DNA from: Candidatus Heimdallarchaeota archaeon
GTDB taxonomy: Archaea > Asgardarchaeota > Heimdallarchaeia > Hodarchaeales > Hodarchaeaceae
Assembly (NCBI GenBank): GCA_019057635.1
Contig: DXJL01000113.1
Span: forward strand, 83,713-115,712
Direction: 5' to 3'
DNA length: 32,000 nucleotides
Below are positions 5,476-30,878 of this stretch, in pieces. Below the pieces are notes generated by a model. The model saw only the letters and a program-made list of their open reading frames with translations, did no database searches and was not told where the DNA came from. Each line of letters begins with the position of its first letter. The stretch's first letter is position 1. The translations under genes were made by a program, and so were the position numbers.

Positions 5476-5580
5476 GCTGCTGTGGCTTAGTTGGTAGAGC
5501 GACAGACTCGTAAGATTTATAGAAGATCATAATAACTCCGAGATATCTGTTGGCCGTGGGTTCAAGTCCCACCAGCAGCT
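5476..5580 (+). tRNA. tRNA-Thr(CGT) with a canonical 37/38 intron
   Basis: Acceptor GCTGCTG/CAGCAGC plus T. D arm GCTT-AGTTGGT-AGAGC. Anticodon stem ACAGA/TCTGT, loop CTCGTA|A. T arm GTGGG-TTCAAGT-CCCAC. Confidence 0.9.
5513..5544 (+). other. tRNA-Thr intron (32 nt) within a textbook bulge-helix-bulge motif
   Basis: CTCG (positions 32-35) pairs with CGAG near the intron's 3' end, forming the 4-bp central helix. It is flanked by 3-nt bulges TAA and ATA. Cutting after the 2nd bulge nucleotide on each strand yields the mature loop CTCGTAA. Confidence 0.8.
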
Positions 5581-10271: not shown

Positions 10272-11573
10272 CTAGAATTTTCGTTTGGGGTTCTTAATCT
10301 TGATTTTCTTTTTGCAAATTGGACAAAACCCACGAATTTTCAGCCATTCTGCGAGATGTGAATAATGTGCGGGTGATCCACACTCAGGACACCTTACTAA
10401 TCTAGTTATGTCGGTAACTTTCGTTCGACATACTGAACAGTTCTCCTCAACTCTTTGATCGGTAGGAAAAACAGATTCAGCTGATAGGAAAGTCGAACCG
10501 CCAGATGAAACAGCTTCGATATTCTTCGCACGAACTTGGAATGATTTTGCAGCTTGCTTTGATCTCACTAGTTCTGCAGCTTGTCGATAAAGAGAAGCTG
10601 AGTAGGTAGGATTATGTTCCTCATTAGCTAAAGCAGCCTCTGCGTATACAAATCCAGGTACTTCATCACCAAAGCTTTCGACAAGTTCTTCATAGAGAGC
10701 TACAGATTGATTGAGATTTTTCTTTCTTAGGAGATCTCTAGCTGAATCCAAAACCTTCAATCGTCTATCAAATTCTTGTATTTTCTCTCTTATTTTTTGA
10801 TTTTCGTTTTCAGTTTCTCCCTCGTTTTCCTCGGTTAAATTACTTAACAGTCCATTTGTGATACTTAAGGAACGTCTAACTTGTTCAATGTCTCCGCTTG
10901 TGAAGCTTTTTTGAATATCACGAATATATCGATTTAATGCTTTTTTTGGATGACTCGTCGTAGAAAGATATTCTTTGGCTAATGAGTCAAAACCCTGCTT
11001 TTTTAATTCTGAAGCGGCTGCAATCAGTACAGTATTTGCTTCCTCTTCAGCTCCCATTGCTCTAAGAAGCTCTGAAGCCTCAAGGAACTTTTGATTGGAA
11101 TAAGCATGCCGAGCTAAATTCCTTATTGCTTGGTCACGATTATGGATAAACTGTGAGTTTTGATCAATGACTTGGATTGCTGCTGGAATAAAATCAGTTC
11201 CTCCAATGTCAATATAGGCTTTTGCTGCTGCAAAAGGTTTTCTGGCAAAAATAAATGCTTTAGAGGATTTGTGAGGATCGTTCTTTGCTCCATAAATCCG
11301 AGCCAGATTAAGAAAGGCTCTTTCGATGTTTCGAGGAGGAAATTTTCTCTCCATACTTCTGAGCGCTAAAATTTGAGAAGCTTCTGGTGTTCGCATTACC
11401 ATATCTGCTGCTTGACTTATCGAAATTTTTGAGTATATCTCCAAAGCGTCTAGATATCTTCCTTGCTGTTCTAAATTGATTGCATTTTGTACTCGTTTAC
11501 CTTTAGAGCCCCAAATTTTACGTATAAATATTATTACGACCCCAATTATAATTAGATATATTATGGTATCCAT
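10272..11573 (-). CDS. N-terminally membrane-anchored helical-repeat (TPR-like) protein with a C-terminal RING-like C4H2C2 zinc finger
   Basis: N-terminal TM segment MDTIIYLIIIGVVIIFI. Long Ala/Leu-rich helical-repeat body. C-terminus CSVCRTKVTDITRLVRCPECGSPAHYSHLAEWLKIRGFCPIC followed by a basic tail. Confidence 0.7.
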   Translation of the reverse strand: MDTIIYLIIIGVVIIFIRKIWGSKGKRVQNAINLEQQGRYLDALEIYSKISISQAADMVMRTPEASQILALRSMERKFPPRNIERAFLNLARIYGAKNDPHKSSKAFIFARKPFAAAKAYIDIGGTDFIPAAIQVIDQNSQFIHNRDQAIRNLARHAYSNQKFLEASELLRAMGAEEEANTVLIAAASELKKQGFDSLAKEYLSTTSHPKKALNRYIRDIQKSFTSGDIEQVRRSLSITNGLLSNLTEENEGETENENQKIREKIQEFDRRLKVLDSARDLLRKKNLNQSVALYEELVESFGDEVPGFVYAEAALANEEHNPTYSASLYRQAAELVRSKQAAKSFQVRAKNIEAVSSGGSTFLSAESVFPTDQRVEENCSVCRTKVTDITRLVRCPECGSPAHYSHLAEWLKIRGFCPICKKKIKIKNPKRKF

Positions 11574-12660: not shown

Positions 12661-14901
12661 TCAAATGGCTCCTGAAATCTTCTTTATGGCTTTGATCAAT
12701 AGACCGTTGGCTTCTTTCCACGTTAATCCTGTTTTTCCCAAAGTTTGGCCCCAAGTTCTTCCTTGAAGAATTCTAGAAATCAGTAGCATTTCTTGAGATG
12801 AACTTAATTTGATATCTAAAGGTGTTACAAAATACGCAATTGCTAACTCTTGCAGTACGTCCACAGCTAATAAAAAATTTAGATATCCTGCATTATATTT
12901 TTTCAAACGGTAATTTCCGCTCTGGGTAATTCTAACCTGGTAGTTTGGAATTGAAACACACGACTGCATAATTAGAAGTACCAATTCAGGCTTTAGCTCA
13001 AATAAAGACTGTTTCAATAAATGAATAAACTGAAAGAAGAAATCACGAGAAGTTTGTTCAATAAATACTTGTGCTTGATCCGAAAGTGGTTTAACAAGAA
13101 CAATATTCCATTCCGAAGTCTCAGGAGTCTTTATTGGTCGAATATGGATAATTTTGAATCCAAACTTCTTCCAGAATTTTAGAAGTTTGACTGTTGCTCC
13201 AAAACTCACCCCGATCCAATCAAGTGTATTATATTGTTTGAGAATTCTCTCGATTGCCATTCTCCCTAAACCTTTATTTTTTAATTCAGGATGTGTGGCG
13301 ATTCTAACAATTCTTAAACCCTTAAGTTTCGCAAAATCAGGAGAAAAATATCGAATTCCAATTGCAGGAATAAGATCTCCTTCAATAAAATGGCCTTCAT
13401 CAATTTTTAATGCAATATTATCAGGTAAAGCTCCCTCTTTGGCTAGTTGACATGCTAGAAGAATAGAATTATGTCTATCCTGGATTGAACCAGTAAGATA
13501 CGCAAGAGAATGTCGATATGAATCCGCAATCAATAACAGATCATTAGGTTGATTTCTATAATGAGAATAAATTAACAATCCCATTACTTCTCTTAGTAAT
13601 TCAAAATTTCTTTCAGAAAACAATTCTGAAGGCTCATTGAGGGTTAATAATTTAGCGTTGTTATTTAGATTATTGAATTCATCTATTTCAATCGATGGTT
13701 TCTCCACTTGTAAGAGGAATGTGTTTTTCAAGAGTTCTTCAATTGAATCACCTTCAGCATAACGAATTGGGTTATTAAGTGTATATACTTGATGCTCAAA
13801 ACGGGGTCGTTTCTTTATCATATTCAAGATTTTGTGTTGGAAACTCCTTCCAGTACCCTCATAACCGTGAATGGTTGATATTAGAATCTTTTTATTCTTA
13901 CTAAAAAGAAATTCAGTTAGTTTCTCTTGTGGAAAAGCGGCAGCTTCATCAACAATTAAGATGTCTGTTTTTATATCCTTTGAAATTTCTTCTGGATTAC
14001 GATATTCTATCTTGCTCCCCTTAGTAAGATATATCCCTACTATTTGATCATCTGATTTCTGGATACGAAATTCTAGGTTATTCTTTTCTAAGCCTAAAGA
14101 CAGAAATAAGAAAACGCTTTGGGTTTGAGAAATAGTCTGAGCAGTAATTGTGACCCGACACTTTTGTGATTTAAAGTTAATCAATGTGTAAGCTATGGCT
14201 AGACCTGTAGCAGCGGATTTTCCTCTTCCACGATCAGCAACAATTACACTTATCTTACTTGAATTACTTTTCTCTCCAAGTTCTTTAGCAAGAGAGAGGA
14301 TTAAATTGTACTGACTAACTGAAACTGGGATTTTTAGGAGTTCTTCTGAAAGAATTTTCGTCATTGAAATTGGATTATAATAAGGATAAAGATCTTTTTC
14401 CTCATTAACAGCCGTAATACAGTTAGTACTGGCCTTAATCTCCTGAAGAAATCTATCTAGTAAATTTGACCTTTTTGAATGAATGAATCGATGTTTATTC
14501 ACAGATTTAATCCACAGATCATATTTTTCTCCAATTAGTATGATCAATCCTCCCCCAAGTACTGTTTCGCTCAATAAAATCAATTTATTTGGATCAAATT
14601 TCTGTCTGAGGTCAATAACTATGAAATCATGTGTTAATCCAAGTAAAGAGCTGACTTCTCTAAGATAATACTTCTTAACCTTAGGGAAATATTTTACTTT
14701 TTTGACTATTCGACCAAAAAACTTGTCTTGAAATAATGATTCTTCTCCAATGATTACACCCCTGATGGATATTTGATTTGAATTAACAAGAGAATCAAAA
14801 AAATTTAGTAAAGAAGCAACAGCTTTCTCAAGAGAATCGAAGAGAACAAGAGTTCTAGAATTAATCTCGGATTGAACACGATTTTGAGAGAAATGTTGCA
14901 T
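12661..14901 (-). CDS. tmcA: tRNA(Met) cytidine acetyltransferase TmcA (NAT10/Kre33 homologue; ac4C writer)
   Basis: Helicase-type P-loop ADRGRGKSAATGLA, Walker B LIVDEAAA, then a GNAT module (RIATHPELKNKGLGRMA) and a tRNA-binding tail. Size and domain order fit TmcA. Confidence 0.9.
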   Translation of the reverse strand: MQHFSQNRVQSEINSRTLVLFDSLEKAVASLLNFFDSLVNSNQISIRGVIIGEESLFQDKFFGRIVKKVKYFPKVKKYYLREVSSLLGLTHDFIVIDLRQKFDPNKLILLSETVLGGGLIILIGEKYDLWIKSVNKHRFIHSKRSNLLDRFLQEIKASTNCITAVNEEKDLYPYYNPISMTKILSEELLKIPVSVSQYNLILSLAKELGEKSNSSKISVIVADRGRGKSAATGLAIAYTLINFKSQKCRVTITAQTISQTQSVFLFLSLGLEKNNLEFRIQKSDDQIVGIYLTKGSKIEYRNPEEISKDIKTDILIVDEAAAFPQEKLTEFLFSKNKKILISTIHGYEGTGRSFQHKILNMIKKRPRFEHQVYTLNNPIRYAEGDSIEELLKNTFLLQVEKPSIEIDEFNNLNNNAKLLTLNEPSELFSERNFELLREVMGLLIYSHYRNQPNDLLLIADSYRHSLAYLTGSIQDRHNSILLACQLAKEGALPDNIALKIDEGHFIEGDLIPAIGIRYFSPDFAKLKGLRIVRIATHPELKNKGLGRMAIERILKQYNTLDWIGVSFGATVKLLKFWKKFGFKIIHIRPIKTPETSEWNIVLVKPLSDQAQVFIEQTSRDFFFQFIHLLKQSLFELKPELVLLIMQSCVSIPNYQVRITQSGNYRLKKYNAGYLNFLLAVDVLQELAIAYFVTPLDIKLSSSQEMLLISRILQGRTWGQTLGKTGLTWKEANGLLIKAIKKISGAI

Positions 14902-16307: not shown

Positions 16308-18506
16308 TCATAAAATATCCCTGTAACGATGTTTCGAAGACGTACGAATAGTGCTTACTGCTTTCTCAAAATCATCCATTCTTATTTTCGGTTTTTTTGT
16401 TTCAGTCAAATTTTGAATTTCTATATCAGTAGGTATTTGATTTTTCTCCTTGATTTGAGATAAAAATCGTGATGTAGCATAAGAAGAAGCTAAATTCACA
16501 ACGCTTTTCAAATCAGCTCCACTGAAACCATCTGTAATTTTTGCTAGAGAATCTATTGATATTTTAGGGTCTAATGGTTTGTTCTTGATATGAATCTGTA
16601 GTATTTTTCCTCTCGCAACAGAATCGGGTAATGGCAGAGTAATGATATGATCGAACCTACCTGGTCGTAAAACTGCAGGATCTATCATATCAGGCCGGTT
16701 GGTTGCGCCAATAACAATTATATCTGCAATTTCTTCCAATCCATCCATTTCAGTAAGTAGAGTGGTAACTAATCTTTCAGAGCTGGGATTAGATTCATTT
16801 CGGACAGGGAAAATCGTATCCATTTCGTCAAAAAATACTATGCATGGAGTAGTCAATCTCGCTTTCCGAAATATTTCTTGAATTGTTCGTTCGCTCTCTC
16901 CAATCCATTTTGAATGGATTTCAGCACCCTTAATAGAAATAAAATTTCTTGATGATTGATTAGCAACTGCTTTTACTATCAAAGTTTTTCCTGTACCTGG
17001 TGAGCCTGTTAGTAATATTCCTCGGGGTGGTTCACTTCCCATGTACCTATATAATGAGGGAAAAATTGTTGGCCACTCAATTGCCTCGCGTAATTGTTGC
17101 TTTACCTCATCTAATCCTCCTATATCATCCCAACCTACAGTGGGAATATCTATAAGAACTTCTCGCAGTGCACTCGGTTTAATCCCCCTTAGGGCATTTT
17201 CAAAATCTTCAGCAGTTACAGAAATTTGATTCAATAATTCTACGGATATCGATTCTCCCCATACAATTTTTGGGAACAGACGTCTTATCGCTTTCATTCC
17301 AGCTTCTTTCGTCAAAGAAGAAAGATCGGCGCCAACAAATCCTTTAGTGTGTTCAACAATCTTACTCATATCGACGTCTTCAGCCAATGGCATATATCTT
17401 GTTTGTATTTCGAGAATAACTTTTCTAGCCTCGGATGTTGGAACTGGAATCTCGATCTCCCTATCAAATCGTCCAGGGCGCCGTAATGCAGGATCAATTG
17501 AATTTGGTCTATTAGTTGCTCCGATAACTATCGTTTCACCTCTCCCGCTTAAACCATCCATTAAAGATAACATCTGTGAAACAACACGACGTTCTACTTC
17601 TCCTGAACCTTGATCATCCCTCTTAGGTGCAATACTATCAATTTCATCAATAAATATGATACTTGGTTCATTCTTTGCTGCTTCATCAAATATTTCTCTG
17701 ATTTTCTGTTCACTCTCTCCGTAGAATTTTGACATGATTTCTGGCCCAGAAACATGCATAAAATGAGAAGCTGATTCACTAGCAACTGCTTTTGCTAGTA
17801 ATGTTTTTCCAGTGCCAGGTGGTCCGTGTAATAGAACACCTTTCGGAGGATTTACTCCCAAGCGTTGAAAAAGCTCGGGATAACGCATGGGTAGTTCAAC
17901 CATTTCTCTTAGATTTTTGATTGTTTCATCTAATCCTCCAATATCTTCATAGGAGACCCGTGGAATAGCTTCGTTTTCTGTTTGTTCCTTAAGGGAAGTT
18001 GATTCTTTCGATTCGATTATAATTTCAGTTTGTTTGTCTACTACAACTGATTCACTGTCTGGTTGGACCTCTATAACTTTATACTCAAAGATATTGTCCA
18101 TAGAACCAAACCGCATTTGATCACCAATTGAAAGCGCTCTTCCCTGCAATTTCTGATGGAAAAATACCTGGGCATTTCCAATTATATTTGCTGATGTAGA
18201 AAGTAGAGTAACTGCCGTCGCTGTAAGGGTTACAGCTTTCCGAATGATTACATTATCATCTAAATGAACACCTGCATTCTGTCTAGTAATTCGATCAATT
18301 AGAATGATATCCAGTGATTCACCACTAGTATAGGCTGGCCATACAATTGCTGAAGTTTTTAATGAATTCTTTCCCTCTACTTCAATTACATCTCCAGATT
18401 GTAAACTAAGTTGACTCATAATTCTTTTAGCAATACGGGCAATTCCTTTTCCTACATCACGGTATTGTGCTTCAGCAACTTTAAGCTGGTACTCATCAGA
18501 TTTCAC
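16308..18506 (-). CDS. cdc48: Cdc48/VCP/p97-type AAA+ ATPase (N domain plus D1 and D2)
   Basis: N domain LKVAEA...DVGKGIARI. Two Walker A motifs ([13 protein letters not shown] and [13 protein letters not shown]). Two Walker B motifs (IIFIDEIDS and IVFFDEMDT). Second-region-of-homology arginines PGRFDREI and [11 protein letters not shown] start. Confidence 0.95.
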
Positions 18507-27087: not shown

Positions 27088-29283
27088 TTAAGAATCAAAC
27101 ACTTCTAAAATATAAGAATAAATTTCCTTTTCAGTGCCTTTCGAAATTTTTTGTAACCGTTGTACAATTAATTCTGGAGTCGATCTTGCATATGTGTAGT
27201 ATTTGGGTGTTCTATCAACAATTAGTTCCAAGTTCTCTGAAAGGCCCTTTGCCTCAATTCCATCAATTCGTAACCCTTCTTTACAATATTTACTGATTTC
27301 TTGAGCTAAATGAGTAACAAAAATACCAACAGAATCGGGAGATCGTCCTAACAAATCTAAAAATGCTGCAATAACCCGTGCAGATGCTCCAGGTTCAGAA
27401 ATACTTTCCATTTCATCAGCTAAGACTAGTCTAGAGTTTGGGCTCATGATCATTTGTGAAAGAGTTCGAAGGGTTGATTCAAAAGCGCCTGCATTTATAT
27501 GTCCAGTTGATTTTCGGTAGTAATGTAATTCTTTGAATCCTCCAATTTTTGCCTCGTAACATGGAACTGGAAGACCCATTTGGCTAAGTATGATAATGAT
27601 TGCAAGGGCTACTAGTAAAGTTGTCTTTCCACCACTGTTTGCTCCTGATAATAGGACAATACGTTCTCCATTAACTCCATTGGCAATTTTTCCAAGTTCT
27701 CCCAAGGCATAGGAGACTGATTCCACTTTCAACTGTCCTTTCAGTTCTTGTTGCGCTAAGAATAGATTTCTACCTTCTTTAACGTATAAACCTGTTCCTT
27801 TCCCTTCAAGAAATTCTGGTAAAGCTAAATTATAGGAACCAGCAAATTTACCAATCATTAAGAGATAATCTAATTCCAGCATACAATGGAGTCCTTCCAT
27901 TGCTACTTCTTCATACCTCTGCAGTTTCTGAGCTAAATCAACTTTTAACTCAAATGCTTTACTTGAGCACTTTTTACGTAAATATTCTGTGAATCGATTT
28001 TTAATCTCATCTTGAGGGTCGATAGGGAATTTTAACTCACGAGGAAAAATACCATTCAAATAATCAGTTTCTTCGTCCAATAAGAAGAGTTTAGAGGATA
28101 GTTCATTCTCAGCCTTATTTATTATTTCTTCTACAGCCAAGTATAATTCATCATCCAAATATTCACGTAAATCCTCACGACTGGAGTTTGCTGAATATCC
28201 TTGCCCTTCAGCAGAGAATCCTTTTAGCAAAGCGAGTACTTTTTCACCTTCCAAATGAATAGTTGTATCTTGTAACATCTTTTCTAATTCATCATTCAAT
28301 GTCAAAAGCACTTCTTCTAAGACCATTTCAAATGATGTCTCTGCTTTTAAAAGGCGTGAAAATTCCTTGTTGAGGCTAGAACTTGGTTCACCTGTTTCTT
28401 CTAAATTTTTTAACTCCTCACCCATGTCAACCAGCATATTGAGATTCATTTCTCCAATATAATTAGCTAACTTATCTGAGGGGAGCTTTTGAAGGAGCGA
28501 TGCAAGTTTAGCAATTGTTACCAGAGTATTTTTGTTCTGGGCAAAAAAAGTCAATGTTTTTTCTGGAAGTATTCTATTAATTTCATGGCGTTGAGATTCA
28601 GAGACAGAAATTATGTTTGGGAGCTCATCATCTAATGTATAATCATTACCAATCCAAATTACTTCATCCGATCCAGCCAGAGTGTCATTAATCTTTTCAT
28701 AATCTTCTATGAATAATATTTCACAATAATTTCCTATTATATTTGAGAGAAGCTCTTTGTAGATGCTTTTATCAGTAGTAGCAACAGCACGCGATGCAGT
28801 ATCAATAGAATCGGAGTGTTCCTTTAATGGAGTTAAATGTCTTAACAGTGCATCATATTCAGTAAGCGAATTTGCGGATTTTTCAATTATTGTGTATAGT
28901 TCTAACCCAAGTCGAGTGATTAGTTGTCGATCAATGATTTTTGCTAATGCTGTAATGGGGAGGGGAAAATATAAGTAAAGTTTTGATCGAGAATAGAAGG
29001 TATTACCAAATTTTGAAATTAAATCTATTATACGATTATATATCAAAATAGTATCTTCAGTTTTTAGAAAATCCTGAATCTGTTCCCCAGTTTCCTGGTA
29101 ATGTAGATTTCGACAAAGGCTGAGGGCAAATCGTTCACCAATTCCATCAATAGAGGAGATCTCGGCAATTCGTGACCCTCTTAGCGCGTTAAGAACAAGA
29201 CTTTCGCTTCCAAAATACGAAACGAGTTTCTTTTCACTGGAAGGGCCAATTCCCCTAATATCACGAAGTTTTATCGCGTTCAA
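27088..29283 (-). CDS. archaeal MutS-like ATPase (MutS domain V only) with an N-terminal helix-hairpin-helix
   Basis: N-terminus IKLRDIRGIGPSSEKKLVSYFGS (HhH). C-terminus LSGANSGGKTTLLVALA (MutS-type Walker A), LVLADEMES (Walker B), FVTHL. No mismatch-binding domain I was recognisable. TTG start. Confidence 0.82.
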   Translation of the reverse strand: MNAIKLRDIRGIGPSSEKKLVSYFGSESLVLNALRGSRIAEISSIDGIGERFALSLCRNLHYQETGEQIQDFLKTEDTILIYNRIIDLISKFGNTFYSRSKLYLYFPLPITALAKIIDRQLITRLGLELYTIIEKSANSLTEYDALLRHLTPLKEHSDSIDTASRAVATTDKSIYKELLSNIIGNYCEILFIEDYEKINDTLAGSDEVIWIGNDYTLDDELPNIISVSESQRHEINRILPEKTLTFFAQNKNTLVTIAKLASLLQKLPSDKLANYIGEMNLNMLVDMGEELKNLEETGEPSSSLNKEFSRLLKAETSFEMVLEEVLLTLNDELEKMLQDTTIHLEGEKVLALLKGFSAEGQGYSANSSREDLREYLDDELYLAVEEIINKAENELSSKLFLLDEETDYLNGIFPRELKFPIDPQDEIKNRFTEYLRKKCSSKAFELKVDLAQKLQRYEEVAMEGLHCMLELDYLLMIGKFAGSYNLALPEFLEGKGTGLYVKEGRNLFLAQQELKGQLKVESVSYALGELGKIANGVNGERIVLLSGANSGGKTTLLVALAIIIILSQMGLPVPCYEAKIGGFKELHYYRKSTGHINAGAFESTLRTLSQMIMSPNSRLVLADEMESISEPGASARVIAAFLDLLGRSPDSVGIFVTHLAQEISKYCKEGLRIDGIEAKGLSENLELIVDRTPKYYTYARSTPELIVQRLQKISKGTEKEIYSYILEVFDS

Positions 29284-29355: not shown

Positions 29356-30267
29356 TTAAATTTTTGTGATTTCCTGCGCATTTGCTAGTTCAATAAACTG
29401 GTTTACCTCATTAAAGGAACAATGATCTGAGTAGGGAAAATAATGGACGTCTAATCGCTTTGAAACTAATTCAACAGCCCAGCCTGTTGGTGAGATCCTC
29501 AAGGAATTAATCAAGCGGGCTTCTGTTCGCTGATCTAATCCAGTGAGATTTTCTACCCTCCTTCTACTCTCAACACAAATTCCAGAGTCTGGATTATCAG
29601 TAAAAATGTCCCAACCTCCACCTATTTCTTTATAAATCTGAACTTTTTTTTCAGGAGCGAAAATTTTCACCTTCAAGGCATCACTTATTGTTTTCAATAG
29701 TTTTTCCTTCCCTATTTGGTACGCAGCAATCCAGATCTCCTTGTGAGGATAATTACCATCCGCTAACATAAGGGATAATATTTCGGAGATTAAATCCTTA
29801 CGAGAGGGAAAATTATACCTTGGCATGTCACCATAGGTATAATCTACCCATAAATGATCCGCACCTTGTATAAGCTCTAATTCATCTAAAATTGGTTTAC
29901 CAAGGCGAAAATCACCAGTATAGACTTCTTTCCTATTTTCCGATGATTCGATCACAAACATCAAACTACCTAAACAATGGTTTGCATCTACCGCATGTAT
30001 CACGAAATCATCAAAATCTAGTGATTGGTTTGTATCTATAAGTAAGCATTTCTCTTTTGGAATTCGGTGAAGAACTTTAAGGACTGCTGCAGTTTCTTTC
30101 GAGCAAACTATCATCGCGTCTTGGGAAGAAAGCACAGATTTTATTCCTGTAGTGTGGTCACTGTGAGCGTGGGATAGAAAAAAATAATCTGATGATGTTG
30201 CTAGTTTCTTTCTTTGACGAAATGGAAATTCATCAAAATAACTATTGGCTAATTTAGAAAAAACCAT
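29356..30267 (-). CDS. SNM1/PSO2/Artemis-type (DRMBL) beta-CASP DNA nuclease
   Basis: FLSHAHSDHTTG (HxHxDH), VDANHCLGSLMFVIE...YTGDFRLGK and C-terminal FPYSDHCSFNEVNQFI match the SNM1-family hallmark motifs DANHCPG, TGDFR and YSEHSS. Confidence 0.78.
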   Translation of the reverse strand: MVFSKLANSYFDEFPFRQRKKLATSSDYFFLSHAHSDHTTGIKSVLSSQDAMIVCSKETAAVLKVLHRIPKEKCLLIDTNQSLDFDDFVIHAVDANHCLGSLMFVIESSENRKEVYTGDFRLGKPILDELELIQGADHLWVDYTYGDMPRYNFPSRKDLISEILSLMLADGNYPHKEIWIAAYQIGKEKLLKTISDALKVKIFAPEKKVQIYKEIGGGWDIFTDNPDSGICVESRRRVENLTGLDQRTEARLINSLRISPTGWAVELVSKRLDVHYFPYSDHCSFNEVNQFIELANAQEITKI

Positions 30268-30461
30268 TGAACTACCCCGAGAAAACTGTAATCCTAAAAT
30301 CTTCTCTTCTTATTCAACAAATTACAAAATACAGAGGAATTAATTAATATTGGGATAAAGGTTTGGAGGTTTCTTTAATGAGGTACCTGTTAAATATTCT
30401 GGAAAATCATTAGGATTATGTTCAAACCGTAAAACGCATCAACAAATTCGTGGGAATAGAG

Positions 30462-30479
30462 CAAAAATAAATAGAAAAG
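30462..30479 (-). terminator. candidate oligo-T terminator for the 5S transcript
   Basis: The minus strand reads CTTTTCTATTTATTTTTG about 35 nt downstream of the 3' flanking helix strand. It is preceded by the small hairpin GCG-AAAAA-CGC. Confidence 0.3.
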
Positions 30480-30511
30480 TGTTTGTATCTCAATGCGCTT
30501 TTTCGCTAGGG

Positions 30512-30518
30512 GATATTG
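30512..30518 (-). repeat. 3' flanking arm (CAATATC on the minus strand) of the inverted repeat bracketing the permuted 5S
   Basis: Perfect 7-nt complement of the 5' arm at 30646-30652. Directly follows CCGG-AAA. Confidence 0.7.
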
Positions 30519-30642
30519 TTTCCGGGTTCGGAATGAGACCGGGTGTGACTCAGGCCCTTTGGCCGAAGAACCTTCAGCTTTCCGATTTTCCCGTAGGCGC
30601 GAGCACAACAGTACAGATCAGAACGGAGCCTGACTTAACTTT
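30519..30642 (-). rRNA. 5S rRNA, circularly permuted gene order (3' half - GTT loop - 5' half)
   Basis: Minus strand: AAA-GTTAAG-TCAGGCTCC-GTT-CTGAT-CTGTACTG-TTGTGC-TCGC-GCCTAC-GGGAAA-ATCGG-AAA-GCTGAAG-GTT-CTTCGGC-CAAA-GGGCCTGA-GTCACACCCGGTCTCATTCCGAACCCGG-AAA. All 5S helices (I-V) and loops can be drawn. Helix III/loop C matches the archaeal consensus block as I remember it. GC-rich island in AT-rich DNA. No credible ORF. Confidence 0.78.
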
Positions 30643-30645
30643 CGG

Positions 30646-30652
30646 CAATATC
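30646..30652 (-). repeat. 5' flanking arm (GATATTG on the minus strand) of the inverted repeat bracketing the permuted 5S
   Basis: Pairs with 30512-30518. Followed by CCG-AAA-GTTAAG. Stacked on an 8-bp leader hairpin (TCTCACAA/TTGTGAGA, 30651-30690). Confidence 0.7.
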
Positions 30653-30721
30653 TCACAAGTTATTTCAGCGCAAGATGTCTGTTTGTGAGATTACAAACCA
30701 GTTGGGGCAATTTCAAGAGGC

Positions 30722-30733
30722 TTTATATATTTA
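30722..30733 (-). promoter_or_regulatory. candidate TATA box for the 5S precursor
   Basis: The minus strand reads TAAATATATAAA about 75 nt upstream of the 5' flanking helix, leaving room for a structured leader of about 45 nt. Confidence 0.3.
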
Positions 30734-30878
30734 GTGGAAACTCTTTACAATAACTAGTACTCGTTGGATACAAAAAGACCTTTTGTAAATGTGGTTTAAG
30801 TACTGGTAAAATTTACTAATTTAAATATAGAATAGGTACACTGGATCTTAAAATCTTATAATCGATGGGTATTATCAA

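What the first reader, a model, noticed from the sequence alone, without database searches (positions are those of the whole stretch)
30519..30642. Complete 5S rRNA encoded in circularly permuted order
On the minus strand every 5S element is present but rotated. The gene begins with the 3' side of loop B (AAGTTAAG). It continues with the helix II 3' strand (TCAGGCTCC), GTT, and helix V (CTGAT/ATCGG). Helix V encloses the loop E-type CTGTACTG...GGGAAA and a helix IV hairpin (GTTGTGC-TCGC-GCCTAC). Next come the two helix I strands, joined by a 3-nt loop (GCTGAAG-GTT-CTTCGGC) instead of forming the free ends. The gene finishes with loop A (CAAA), the helix II 5' strand (GGGCCTGA) and helix III/loop C (GTCACACCCGGTCTCATTCCGAACCCGG). 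GGGCCTGA pairs with TCAGGC(T)CC and leaves one bulged nucleotide two base pairs from loop A, the same architecture as textbook archaeal 5S. Joining the encoded 3' end to the 5' end recreates ...GAACCCGGAAAGTTAAG..., which is the canonical continuous 5S sequence. A tandem-repeat junction does not explain this, because the sequence upstream of AAGTTAAG is not a 5S 5' half and the 3'-to-5' linker is only GTT. Known precedents include permuted SRP RNA in Thermoproteus, permuted tRNA genes, permuted 23S in Pyrococcus and permuted organellar 5S. I am not aware of a permuted 5S gene described in Archaea.
Basis: partly seen in the sequence, partly recalled or inferred. Interest (0 to 1): 0.93.

Follow-up and report, generated by a model that had tools for sequence, protein, structure and literature searches.

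The report
Circularly permuted 5S rRNA gene
This Asgard archaeon (Hodarchaeales, the group held to be closest to eukaryotes) encodes its 5S ribosomal RNA with the two halves swapped. The flanks form the signal that archaeal cells use to cut and re-join RNA, so the working molecule is probably a closed circle, which would explain why 5S genes have gone undetected in related genomes.

Summary
Window 30639..30520 (minus strand, 120 nt) is a complete 5S rRNA in rotated order: loop B 3' side, helix II 3' strand, helix V/loop E/helix IV, helix I closed by a GUU cap, loop A, helix II 5' strand, helix III/loop C.

- **Rfam:** RF00001 gives only two sub-threshold, order-inverted partial hits.
- **Rotation test:** a covariance model built only from Rfam-verified haloarchaeal 5S genes, rotated in silico, hits exactly 30639..30520 full length (93.5 bits, E 2.5e-18). 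The reciprocal test also works.
- **Conservation:** the arrangement recurs in 26 distinct sequences from Hodarchaeales, a GC-rich lineage and metagenomes. 96% of cells are paired and 31 of 45 pairs show compensatory changes.

Leader and trailer form a covarying processing stem that ends in a bulge-helix-bulge motif. I calibrated the cut rule on a tRNA intron in the same window. Cutting by that rule and ligating gives CCCGGAA-GUUAAG, the canonical 5S junction.

The gene has its own conserved TATA box and oligo-T stop. I found no prior description. Still unproven: transcripts, whether the mature RNA is circular, and the absence of a colinear copy elsewhere in the genome. I rate it a new variant of a known kind, with high interest.

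The parts
30721..30732 (-). TATA-box-like promoter element AAATATATAAAG, about 20-25 nt upstream of the first leader helix
   Evidence: It sits at the same distance in all relatives (e.g. AATATTTAAAG, GTATATAAAG, CTTTTATAAAG in the GC-rich group). Its role as an archaeal promoter is inferred.
30640..30700 (-). 5' leader, discarded. It contains the far helix strand 30699..30686, the mid helix UGCGC 30672..30668, the outer helix strand GAGAUAUUG 30654..30646, the central BHB strand CCGA 30645..30642, and the first two bulge nucleotides AA 30641..30640.
   Evidence: Cofolding leader and trailer gives a long interrupted stem. The outer helix is 91% paired with 5-7 compensatory pairs. The BHB table covers 23 distinct loci.
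30520..30639 (-). The permuted 5S rRNA itself: 120 nt from G of GUUAAG to ...CCCGGAA, the predicted excised and ligated unit
   Evidence: R3 (rotated true 5S genes) hits exactly these coordinates at 93.5 bits. R1 gives 173 bits. Rfam gives partial hits.
30625..30633 (-). Helix II 3' strand UCAGGC(U)CC with one bulged U; it pairs with GGGCCUGA at 30557..30550
   Evidence: 99% of cells are paired and 3-7 pairs show double changes. The GC-rich L022 keeps the bulge (G) while three pairs change.
30580..30623 (-). Helix V (UUCUGAU 30623..30617 / AUCGGAA 30586..30580) enclosing the loop E motif CUGUACUG...GGGAAA and the helix IV hairpin GUUGUGC-UCGC-GCCUAC
   Evidence: Six of 7 helix V pairs and 4-5 of 8 helix IV pairs are compensatory. 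The region aligns to Rfam model positions about 67-112.
30562..30578 (-). Helix I as a capped hairpin: GCUGAAG (30578..30572), GUU cap (30571..30569), CUUCGGC (30568..30562)
   Evidence: 100% of cells are paired and 3-4 pairs are compensatory. The cap is 3-4 nt and variable in sequence in all lineages.
30550..30561 (-). Loop A (CAAA 30561..30558) and helix II 5' strand GGGCCUGA (30557..30550)
30522..30542 (-). Helix III / loop C: CCGGUCUCAUUCCGAACCCGG. Its 3' strand CCGG (30525..30522) is also the trailer strand of the central BHB helix.
   Evidence: Rfam model positions 27-51 match at 20.8 bits with every aligned position at the highest posterior probability. In L013, L023 and L032 the C-G to U-A change in helix III is matched by CCGG to CUGG in the leader.
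30480..30519 (-). 3' trailer, discarded. It contains the third bulge nucleotide A 30519, the outer helix strand CAAUAUCCC 30518..30510, the mid helix GCGCA 30498..30494, and the far helix UGAGAUACAAAC 30492..30481.
30461..30479 (-). Oligo-T tract CTTTTCTATTTATTTTTGC, the likely archaeal transcription terminator
   Evidence: A T-rich tract follows the stem in all relatives. Its function is inferred.

Best explanation
Window 30639..30520 (minus strand) is the functional 5S rRNA gene of a Hodarchaeales (Asgard) archaeon, encoded in circularly permuted order. The 3' two thirds (from GUUAAG of loop B to the 3' strand of helix I) come first. A 3-nt cap replaces the natural termini. The 5' third (helix I 5' strand, loop A, helix II 5' strand, helix III/loop C) follows.

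The gene is a unit of about 230 nt with its own TATA box and oligo-T terminator. [quoted passage not shown] That motif consists of an outer helix GAGAUAUUG/CAAUAUCCC, a 4-position central helix (leader CCGA, CCGG in most relatives, with trailer CCGG), and two 3-nt bulges (AAG and AAA), each 3' of the central helix.

The tRNA-splicing endonuclease would cut after the second bulge nucleotide on each strand. RtcB would join the ends, recreating the continuous ...CCGAACCCGGAA-GUUAAG... sequence and giving a 120-nt covalently closed 5S rRNA. After ligation the trailer CCGG switches partner to form helix III.

- **Shown here:** the permuted order, the 5S identity, conservation and covariation of the fold and of the processing stem, and the exact junction arithmetic.
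- **Inferred:** transcription, cleavage, ligation, and that the circle rather than a re-opened form is what sits in the ribosome.

The likely origin is a tandem duplication followed by loss of the outer halves. That would leave a direct repeat of CCGGAA. CCGG is a palindrome, so the two copies pair with each other and the repeat forms the symmetric BHB core.
For: **Identity and rotation**
- Rfam gives order-inverted partial hits.
- blastn of the rotated sequence aligns colinearly across the junction (positions 4-102) to the Halomicrobium 5S gene.
- The haloarchaeal targets are verified 5S genes at 90-106 bits.
- R2 (family rotated to colinear order) hits them full length at 90-103 bits but splits on the native window.
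- R3 (true 5S genes rotated) hits 30639..30520 full length at 93.5 bits, and gives only split hits of 37-57 bits on true colinear genes.

**Function**
- The arrangement is syntenic or conserved in 26 distinct sequences.
- 96-98% of cells are paired, 17/36 (MAFFT alignment) and 31/45 (model alignment) pairs show double-sided changes, and 0/500 shuffles reach the observed values. Slid controls collapse to 24-55%.

**Processing**
- The outer helix covaries: GAUAUUG/CAAUAUC, GAUUCUG/CAGAAUC, GACUCUG/CAGAGUC, GGGUG/CACCC, GGCG/CGCC.
- The central helix shows the compensatory CUGG/CCAG in L013, L023 and L032.
- The tRNA-Thr intron in this window fixes the geometry and the cut rule.
- That rule gives the canonical GGAA|GUUAAG in 22 of the 23 distinct loci; in the divergent L038 it does so only in a register shifted by 1 nt.
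- Leader-trailer cofolding gives a long stem.
- The TATA box and T tract are conserved.

**Context**
- Rfam at gathering threshold finds no 5S at any of these loci.
- Wu et al. 2022 report that 5S genes 'could not be predicted' in closed Heimdallarchaeum genomes (PMC8813620).
Against: - There is no RNA evidence of any kind: no transcripts, ends or junction reads.
- In this window the central helix has only 3 of 4 pairs (an A.C at the inner end).
- An inner helix beyond the bulges is weak (GUU/AAC at best).
- Forming the BHB requires helix III to be open, so it competes with the mature fold.
- The rest of the genome could not be scanned, so a colinear 5S elsewhere is not excluded.
- No known enzyme requirement distinguishes a circular end product from one re-opened at the cap.
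Confidence: 0.8

Rival explanations
1. The gene and the BHB excision and ligation are as above, but the circle is only an intermediate. An unknown nuclease opens the 3-nt cap of helix I, and the ribosome carries a conventional linear 5S rRNA with normal termini. This would parallel permuted tRNA genes and circular pre-16S/23S rRNAs.
For: All known archaeal circular pre-16S rRNAs and most circular pre-23S rRNAs are re-linearised (background text in PMC12918454). Permuted tRNAs are opened at their natural ends (general knowledge). Two U residues of the cap are nearly invariant within Hodarchaeales.
Against: The cap is only 3-4 nt, varies between lineages (GUU, UUU, AUU, ACUU, CUCG, UGCG) and carries no recognisable processing motif. 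Permuted SRP RNA in Thermoproteus stays circular (general knowledge: Plagens et al. 2015, not read here). The 5S helix I end is solvent-exposed, so a cap should be tolerated.
Confidence: 0.15
2. The RNA functions as a linear, permuted 5S. The flanks are trimmed or cut but the ends are never ligated, leaving a permanent break between helix III and loop B, as in permuted organellar 5S rRNAs.
For: Linear permuted 5S rRNAs exist in organelles (PMC4267664). Helix II would hold the two parts together without a covalent link.
Against: The conserved, covarying BHB places both cuts so that ligation restores the canonical sequence to the nucleotide. In archaea, BHB cleavage products are ligated by RtcB in every characterised case (general knowledge). 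A simple trimming model does not predict covariation between the leader CUGG and the trailer CCAG.
Confidence: 0.07
3. This is a rearranged relic (pseudogene) or an assembly artefact, and the real 5S is a colinear gene elsewhere in the genome.
For: Only 32 kb of this genome was available. I could not scan the closed Hodarchaeales chromosomes CP070665, CP070760 and CP070695.
Against: The same arrangement occurs in more than 25 independent assemblies with compensatory substitutions in all five helices and in the processing stem, and with a conserved promoter and terminator. No colinear 5S appears in 287 kb of related loci. No 5S was predictable in closed Heimdallarchaeum genomes.
Confidence: 0.02

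Closest known systems
Circularly permuted SRP RNA gene of Thermoproteus (Plagens et al. 2015; recalled from memory, not read here)
   Same: It is an essential, universally conserved structured RNA encoded with its 3' part upstream of its 5' part. Leader and trailer form a BHB. EndA and ligase produce a circle in which the natural ends are joined by a short cap.
   Different: It is a different RNA (SRP versus 5S) in a different phylum (Thermoproteota versus Asgard). Here the central BHB helix is built from a duplicated palindromic piece of the RNA itself (the CCGG of helix III).
Permuted tRNA genes (Cyanidioschyzon merolae; Thermofilum pendens)
   Same: The halves are in swapped order, there is a BHB at the junction of the flanks, and a circular intermediate forms.
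   Different: tRNA circles are re-opened at the acceptor ends by RNase P and tRNase Z, and the linker is longer. For this 5S no re-opening signal is visible.
Permuted organellar 5S rRNAs (Valach et al. 2014, PMC4267664)
   Same: The 5S rRNA has its natural ends closed and new ends elsewhere.
   Different: They occur in organelle genomes, no BHB or ligation is implied, and the molecules are linear and highly derived. Here the sequence is a near-canonical archaeal 5S of a free-living cell.
Circular or permuted 23S rRNA (Pyrococcus furiosus, PMC7758197; circular 23S in several archaeal phyla, PMC12918454)
   Same: BHB-dependent circularisation of a ribosomal RNA that then stays circular or permuted in the ribosome.
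   Different: Those genes are colinear and the permutation arises at RNA level. Here the gene itself is permuted and circularisation is needed to restore continuity.
Low-level circular 5S rRNA in Sulfolobus and Halobacterium (Danan et al. 2012, PMC3326292)
   Same: Circular 5S molecules have been seen in archaea.
   Different: They arise from ordinary colinear genes, are rare, were not validated by RT-PCR, and may be degradation intermediates.

Membership tests
5S rRNA (Rfam RF00001) | Scores at or above the gathering threshold (38 bits) as one colinear match | tested here: not met
   The native sequence gives only 20.8 and 18.3 bits, in two order-inverted pieces. No hit at gathering threshold in the window or in 10 related loci. 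This is the expected result for a permuted gene.
5S rRNA (Rfam RF00001) | Full set of helices I-V, the loop A three-way junction, loop C and loop E motifs, once order is corrected | tested here: met
   R3, built from Rfam-verified 5S genes rotated in silico, matches 30639..30520 over model positions 1-122 at 93.5 bits. R2, the family rotated to colinear order, matches true 5S genes over 1-117 at 90-103 bits. The conserved motifs CCGAAC, GGAAGUUAAG, GUACUG and GGGAA are all present.
5S rRNA (Rfam RF00001) | Secondary structure maintained by compensatory substitutions | tested here: met
   97.7% of cells are paired and 17 of 36 pairs are compensatory on a MAFFT alignment. The figures are 96.1% and 31 of 45 on 26 sequences.
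5S rRNA (Rfam RF00001) | Incorporated in the large ribosomal subunit | not testable with these tools
   This needs ribosome-associated RNA or cryo-EM.
Archaeal bulge-helix-bulge (BHB) splicing-endonuclease substrates | Two 3-nt bulges on opposite strands separated by a 4-bp helix, each bulge 3' of the central helix | tested here: met
   The leader reads CCGA-AAG and the trailer CCGG-AAA. The central helix has 3 of 4 pairs here and 4 of 4 in 13 of 23 distinct relatives. The geometry is identical to the tRNA-Thr intron BHB in this window.
Archaeal bulge-helix-bulge (BHB) splicing-endonuclease substrates | Flanking helices on both sides of the core (hBHBh') | tested here: inconclusive
   The outer helix is strong and covaries. 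The inner helix is at most GUU/AAC (3 bp) and made of invariant 5S residues, so covariation cannot test it. It may be a relaxed motif.
Archaeal bulge-helix-bulge (BHB) splicing-endonuclease substrates | Cleavage by EndA and ligation by RtcB | not testable with these tools
   This needs an in vitro assay or junction reads. The predicted product restores the canonical 5S sequence exactly.
Circularly permuted archaeal non-coding RNA genes (tRNA, SRP RNA) | 3' part encoded upstream of 5' part, natural termini joined by a short linker, BHB formed by leader and trailer | tested here: met
Circularly permuted archaeal non-coding RNA genes (tRNA, SRP RNA) | No colinear copy of the same RNA in the genome | not tested
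There is indirect support only.

The most novel reading that the evidence does not exclude
In Hodarchaeales and at least two other lineages, the only 5S rRNA gene is circularly permuted. The mature 5S rRNA in the ribosome would then be a covalently closed 120-nt circle made by the tRNA-splicing machinery. That would be the first cellular organisms known without a linear 5S rRNA. The permutation would also serve as a rare genomic change marking a clade within or near Heimdallarchaeia, and it would explain the 'missing' 5S genes of these genomes.
Probability: 0.5. Interest if true: 0.9.

Novelty: new variant of a known kind. Interest (0 to 1): 0.85.

Why it matters
5S rRNA is universal, and its gene is considered trivially detectable in archaeal, bacterial and nuclear genomes (abstract of PMC4267664).

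- **First of its kind, if the literature search holds.** A gene-level circular permutation in a free-living cell has, as far as the held literature shows, not been described.
- **Annotation.** It gives a concrete candidate explanation for the report that 5S genes could not be predicted in closed Heimdallarchaeum genomes (PMC8813620), although I could not test those genomes. Because standard Rfam-based annotation misses it, it also suggests that genomes assembled from metagenomes (MAGs) of these groups fail the 5S criterion for 'high-quality' status.
- **RNA processing.** It extends the set of RNAs that depend on the splicing endonuclease and RtcB pathway for basic function to a ribosomal RNA, in the archaeal order currently placed closest to eukaryotes.
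- **Origin of BHB motifs.** It shows one simple way a BHB can arise, through a direct repeat of a palindromic tetramer.
- **Phylogeny.** It offers a discrete character for Heimdallarchaeia phylogeny.
- **Testability.** Cultured Hodarchaeales strains exist (bioRxiv 10.1101/2025.02.26.640444), so the prediction can be tested directly.

Tried and rejected
- **Exact-protein look-up** of the neighbouring gene found nothing.
- **Viral contig scan** for a colinear archaeal 5S pattern, to obtain reference genes, found nothing. I took reference 5S genes from haloarchaeal plasmids instead.
- **Priestia 5S** aligned poorly in the rotated alignment, so I left it out of R3.
- **Extending to Heimdallarchaeaceae and the nearest relatives of the GC-rich group** through ribosomal protein L15e synteny failed. 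No 5S of either kind lies within ±10 kb in L045-L049.
- **Naming the GC-rich lineage** failed. Its L15e is at most about 67% identical to the nearest relatives outside the group, and the closest named ones are Asgard (Hermod-, Baldr-, Hel-archaeota, about 65%). Cluster look-up gave no names.
- **Sigma-70 promoter and intrinsic terminator scan** is uninformative for an archaeon.
- **Neighbouring MBL-fold gene as a dedicated 5S processing nuclease:** I considered this and rejected it as the default reading. The protein is an SNM1/Apollo/Artemis-type DNA repair nuclease homologue paired with a MutS-like ATPase. In the GC-rich group two genes separate it from the 5S, which lies on the opposite strand.
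- **Sub-threshold snoRNA hits** on the plus strand at 30667-30800 are treated as chance.

Full report
**What is there**

On the minus strand, 30642..30519 reads AAAGUUAAG-UCAGGCUCC-GUUCUGAU-CUGUACUG-UUGUGCUCGCGCCUAC-GGGAAA-AUCGGAA-A-GCUGAAG-GUU-CUUCGGC-CAAA-GGGCCUGA-GUCACA-CCCGGUCUCAUUCCGAACCCGGAAA. The window has 35% G+C and this stretch about 52-55%.

RNAfold of the native sequence gives helix II closing a junction from which the helix V/IV arm and a capped helix I hairpin emerge, followed by a separate helix III hairpin. At gathering threshold Rfam finds only two tRNAs in the window. In E-value mode RF00001 gives two partial hits in inverted order. Model positions 27-51 match 30544..30520 at 20.8 bits. 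The 3' two thirds match inside 30675..30570 at 18.3 bits.

**Organism**

The 303-aa protein directly downstream (29356-30267, minus strand) has homologues named Hodarchaeales, Hodarchaeota or Heimdallarchaeota. The closest genome locus is Ca. Heimdallarchaeota B3_Heim (NJBF01000001, 96% identity). A tRNA with a 32-34-nt intron at 5476-5580 fits an archaeon.

**Conservation**

In 16 of the 23 genome loci recovered through that protein, the same permuted arrangement lies about 250 nt upstream of the gene on the same strand. In three more it lies on the opposite strand. A further locus, L005, holds a fragment cut off at the contig end.

A covariance model of the native order (R1) finds the arrangement full length in several groups:
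- all Hodarchaeales loci, at 150-175 bits
- a GC-rich (68%) lineage whose neighbouring protein is only 38-39% identical (L022, L024/26, L027/28), at 126-130 bits
- ten metagenome contigs recovered with an order-specific DNA pattern, including a divergent form, L038, at 81 bits

None of these loci reaches the Rfam 5S gathering score.

**Covariation**

On a MAFFT alignment of 16 sequences, the five 5S helices are 97.7% paired. Seventeen of 36 pairs change on both sides. None of 500 shuffles reaches this, and sliding the partners by one to three columns drops pairing to 24-55%. On 26 distinct sequences aligned to the model, pairing is 96.1% and 31 of 45 pairs are compensatory (this alignment leans towards the structure).

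GC-rich L022 changes three pairs and keeps a bulged nucleotide at the same place.

**Rotation tests**

- **BLAST.** The window sequence re-ordered to start at CUUCGGC aligns colinearly, across the proposed junction (positions 4-102), to plasmid-borne haloarchaeal 5S genes (Halomicrobium urmianum, 72.7% identity, E 4e-6). Rfam confirms these genes and one Priestia gene as full-length 5S at 86-106 bits.
- **Model R2.** I built R2 from the Asgard family rotated to colinear order. It hits the true 5S genes over 1-117 at 90-103 bits and Priestia at 51 bits. On the native window it splits into 50.5 and 35.3 bits. R1 gives only 20-31 bits on true 5S genes.
- **Model R3.** I built R3 from the four verified haloarchaeal 5S genes alone, rotated at GGAA|GUUAAG, so it contains no information from the candidate. 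It hits window 30639..30520(-) over 1-122 at 93.5 bits (E 2.5e-18) and the GC-rich loci at 108-113 bits. On the true colinear genes it gives only split hits of 37-57 bits.

The rotated sequence is therefore a 5S rRNA, and the native order is a true circular permutation.

The leader GAGAUAUUG (30654..30646) pairs with the trailer CAAUAUCCC (30518..30510). Further out, UGCGC pairs with GCGCA, and GUUUGUAAUCUCA pairs with UGAGAUACAAAC. Cofolding leader and trailer gives one long interrupted stem.

The outer helix is 91% paired with five to seven compensatory pairs. Examples are GAUUCUG/CAGAAUC, GACUCUG/CAGAGUC, GGGUG/CACCC and GGCG/CGCC.

Between this helix and the 5S body, the leader reads CCGA-AAG (CCGG-AAG in most relatives) and the trailer reads CCGG-AAA. 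In L013, L023 and L032 the trailer is CCAG and the leader CUGG, which is a compensatory change. This is a 4-position helix flanked by two 3-nt bulges, each 3' of the helix. That is the bulge-helix-bulge geometry.

I calibrated the geometry and the cut rule on the tRNA-Thr(CGU) intron in this same window. There the arrangement is ACAGA-CUCG-UA|A ... CGAG-AU|A-UCUGU, and the known 37/38 exon boundaries place the cut after the second bulge nucleotide on each strand. Applied to the 5S precursor, this rule cuts at 30640|30639 and 30520|30519. It joins ...CCGAACCCGGAA to GUUAAG..., which is the canonical continuous 5S sequence with the canonical spacing, and gives a 120-nt unit. These are the coordinates that R3 found independently.

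The same arithmetic holds in 22 of the 23 distinct loci tabulated, with unit lengths of 119-121 nt (149 nt in L017, which carries an intron). L038, which has an extra hairpin in its leader, reaches the canonical junction only in a register shifted by 1 nt.

**Transcription unit**

A TATA-like element (AAATATATAAAG, 30732..30721) lies at a fixed distance upstream in all lineages, and a T-rich tract follows the stem (30479..30461). Their function is inferred.

**Mechanism and open points**

The best-supported reading is transcription of a pre-5S of about 230 nt, BHB cleavage by the splicing endonuclease, and RtcB ligation to a circle. The trailer CCGG would then switch from the leader to the 5' strand of helix III.

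- The cap on helix I is 3-4 nt, varies between lineages and shows no processing signal, so I favour a circular mature RNA. Re-opening at the cap cannot be excluded.
- An unligated permuted RNA is less likely. It would not explain why the cuts restore the sequence exactly, or why leader and trailer covary.
- A relic or artefact is excluded by conservation and covariation.
- Weak points: there are no RNA data. This window's central helix has an A.C mismatch. The inner helix is weak. The BHB competes with helix III. The rest of the genome could not be searched.

The direct repeat CCGGAA at both ends suggests an origin by tandem duplication and loss of the outer halves. CCGG is palindromic, so the two copies of the repeat pair with each other and form the two-fold symmetric BHB core. 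This is inference.

**Literature**

Full-text searches found permuted organellar 5S (PMC4267664), RNA-level permuted or circular 23S (PMC7758197, PMC12918454) and rare circular 5S from normal genes (PMC3326292). They found no permuted 5S gene in Archaea. The library holds open-access papers only.

Wu et al. [quoted passage not shown] By contrast, a 5S was reported for Kariarchaeum. I could not reach Heimdallarchaeaceae 5S loci through synteny. Cultured Hodarchaeales strains exist.

**Verdict**

This is a new variant of a known kind: BHB-processed permuted RNA genes, now including a ribosomal RNA. Interest is high.

Noticed in passing
L017:3559-3737 (minus strand; JBHLRO010000030.1, isolate TM1M.79): This permuted 5S carries a 30-nt insertion in loop C with its own BHB (central UCCG/CGGG, bulges AAA and AAC). 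Cutting after the second bulge nucleotide restores CUCAUUCCGAA|CCCGGAA exactly, so it looks like an intron inside a 5S rRNA gene. It was seen in one genome only, because the sister contig L018 ends before it.
   Followed up: partly
window 5476-5580 (+): A tRNA-Thr(CGU) with a 32-34-nt intron at the canonical 37/38 position and a textbook BHB. Rfam finds it (61.7 bits) but ARAGORN misses it.
   Followed up: partly
window 29356-30267 (-) and 27088-29283 (-): The gene directly downstream of the 5S encodes a 303-aa SNM1/Apollo/Artemis-type metallo-beta-lactamase nuclease (human Apollo, PDB 7b2x, E 4.6e-24). It is followed by a MutS domain V ATPase. The pair is conserved next to, or within about 2.5 kb of, the permuted 5S in the full-length Hodarchaeales loci that I inspected (window, L024, L027, L028) and in the GC-rich group. 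It is probably a DNA repair module and the linkage is probably plain synteny.
   Followed up: partly
L038:1299-1438 (+) (JABAHP010011363.1): A divergent permuted 5S (81 bits with R1, 88 bits with R3) from an unidentified lineage. It has an 11-bp outer helix GCCUAGUAAGG/CCUUACUAGGC and an extra hairpin inserted in the leader between the outer and central helices. The canonical junction is obtained only in a register shifted by 1 nt.
   Followed up: partly
L022:523-668, L024:3347-3491, L027:3403-3553 (all minus strand): A GC-rich (68%) lineage, probably thermophilic and probably Asgard, shares the same permutation and break point. Its ribosomal protein L15e is at most about 67% identical to the nearest relatives outside the group (closest named ones are Asgard, about 65%), so its taxonomy stays unresolved.
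   Followed up: partly
window 10272-11573 (-), 12661-14901 (-), 16308-18506 (-): Eukaryote-like genes elsewhere in the window: a RING-finger protein, a NAT10/TmcA-type RNA cytidine acetyltransferase and a Cdc48 AAA ATPase. These rest on Pfam hits only.
   Followed up: no
window 30667-30800 (+): Sub-threshold C/D-box snoRNA-like Rfam hits (snoR43 at 19.8 bits, snoZ165 at 16.3 bits) lie antisense to the 5S leader and promoter region. They are probably chance matches.
   Followed up: no
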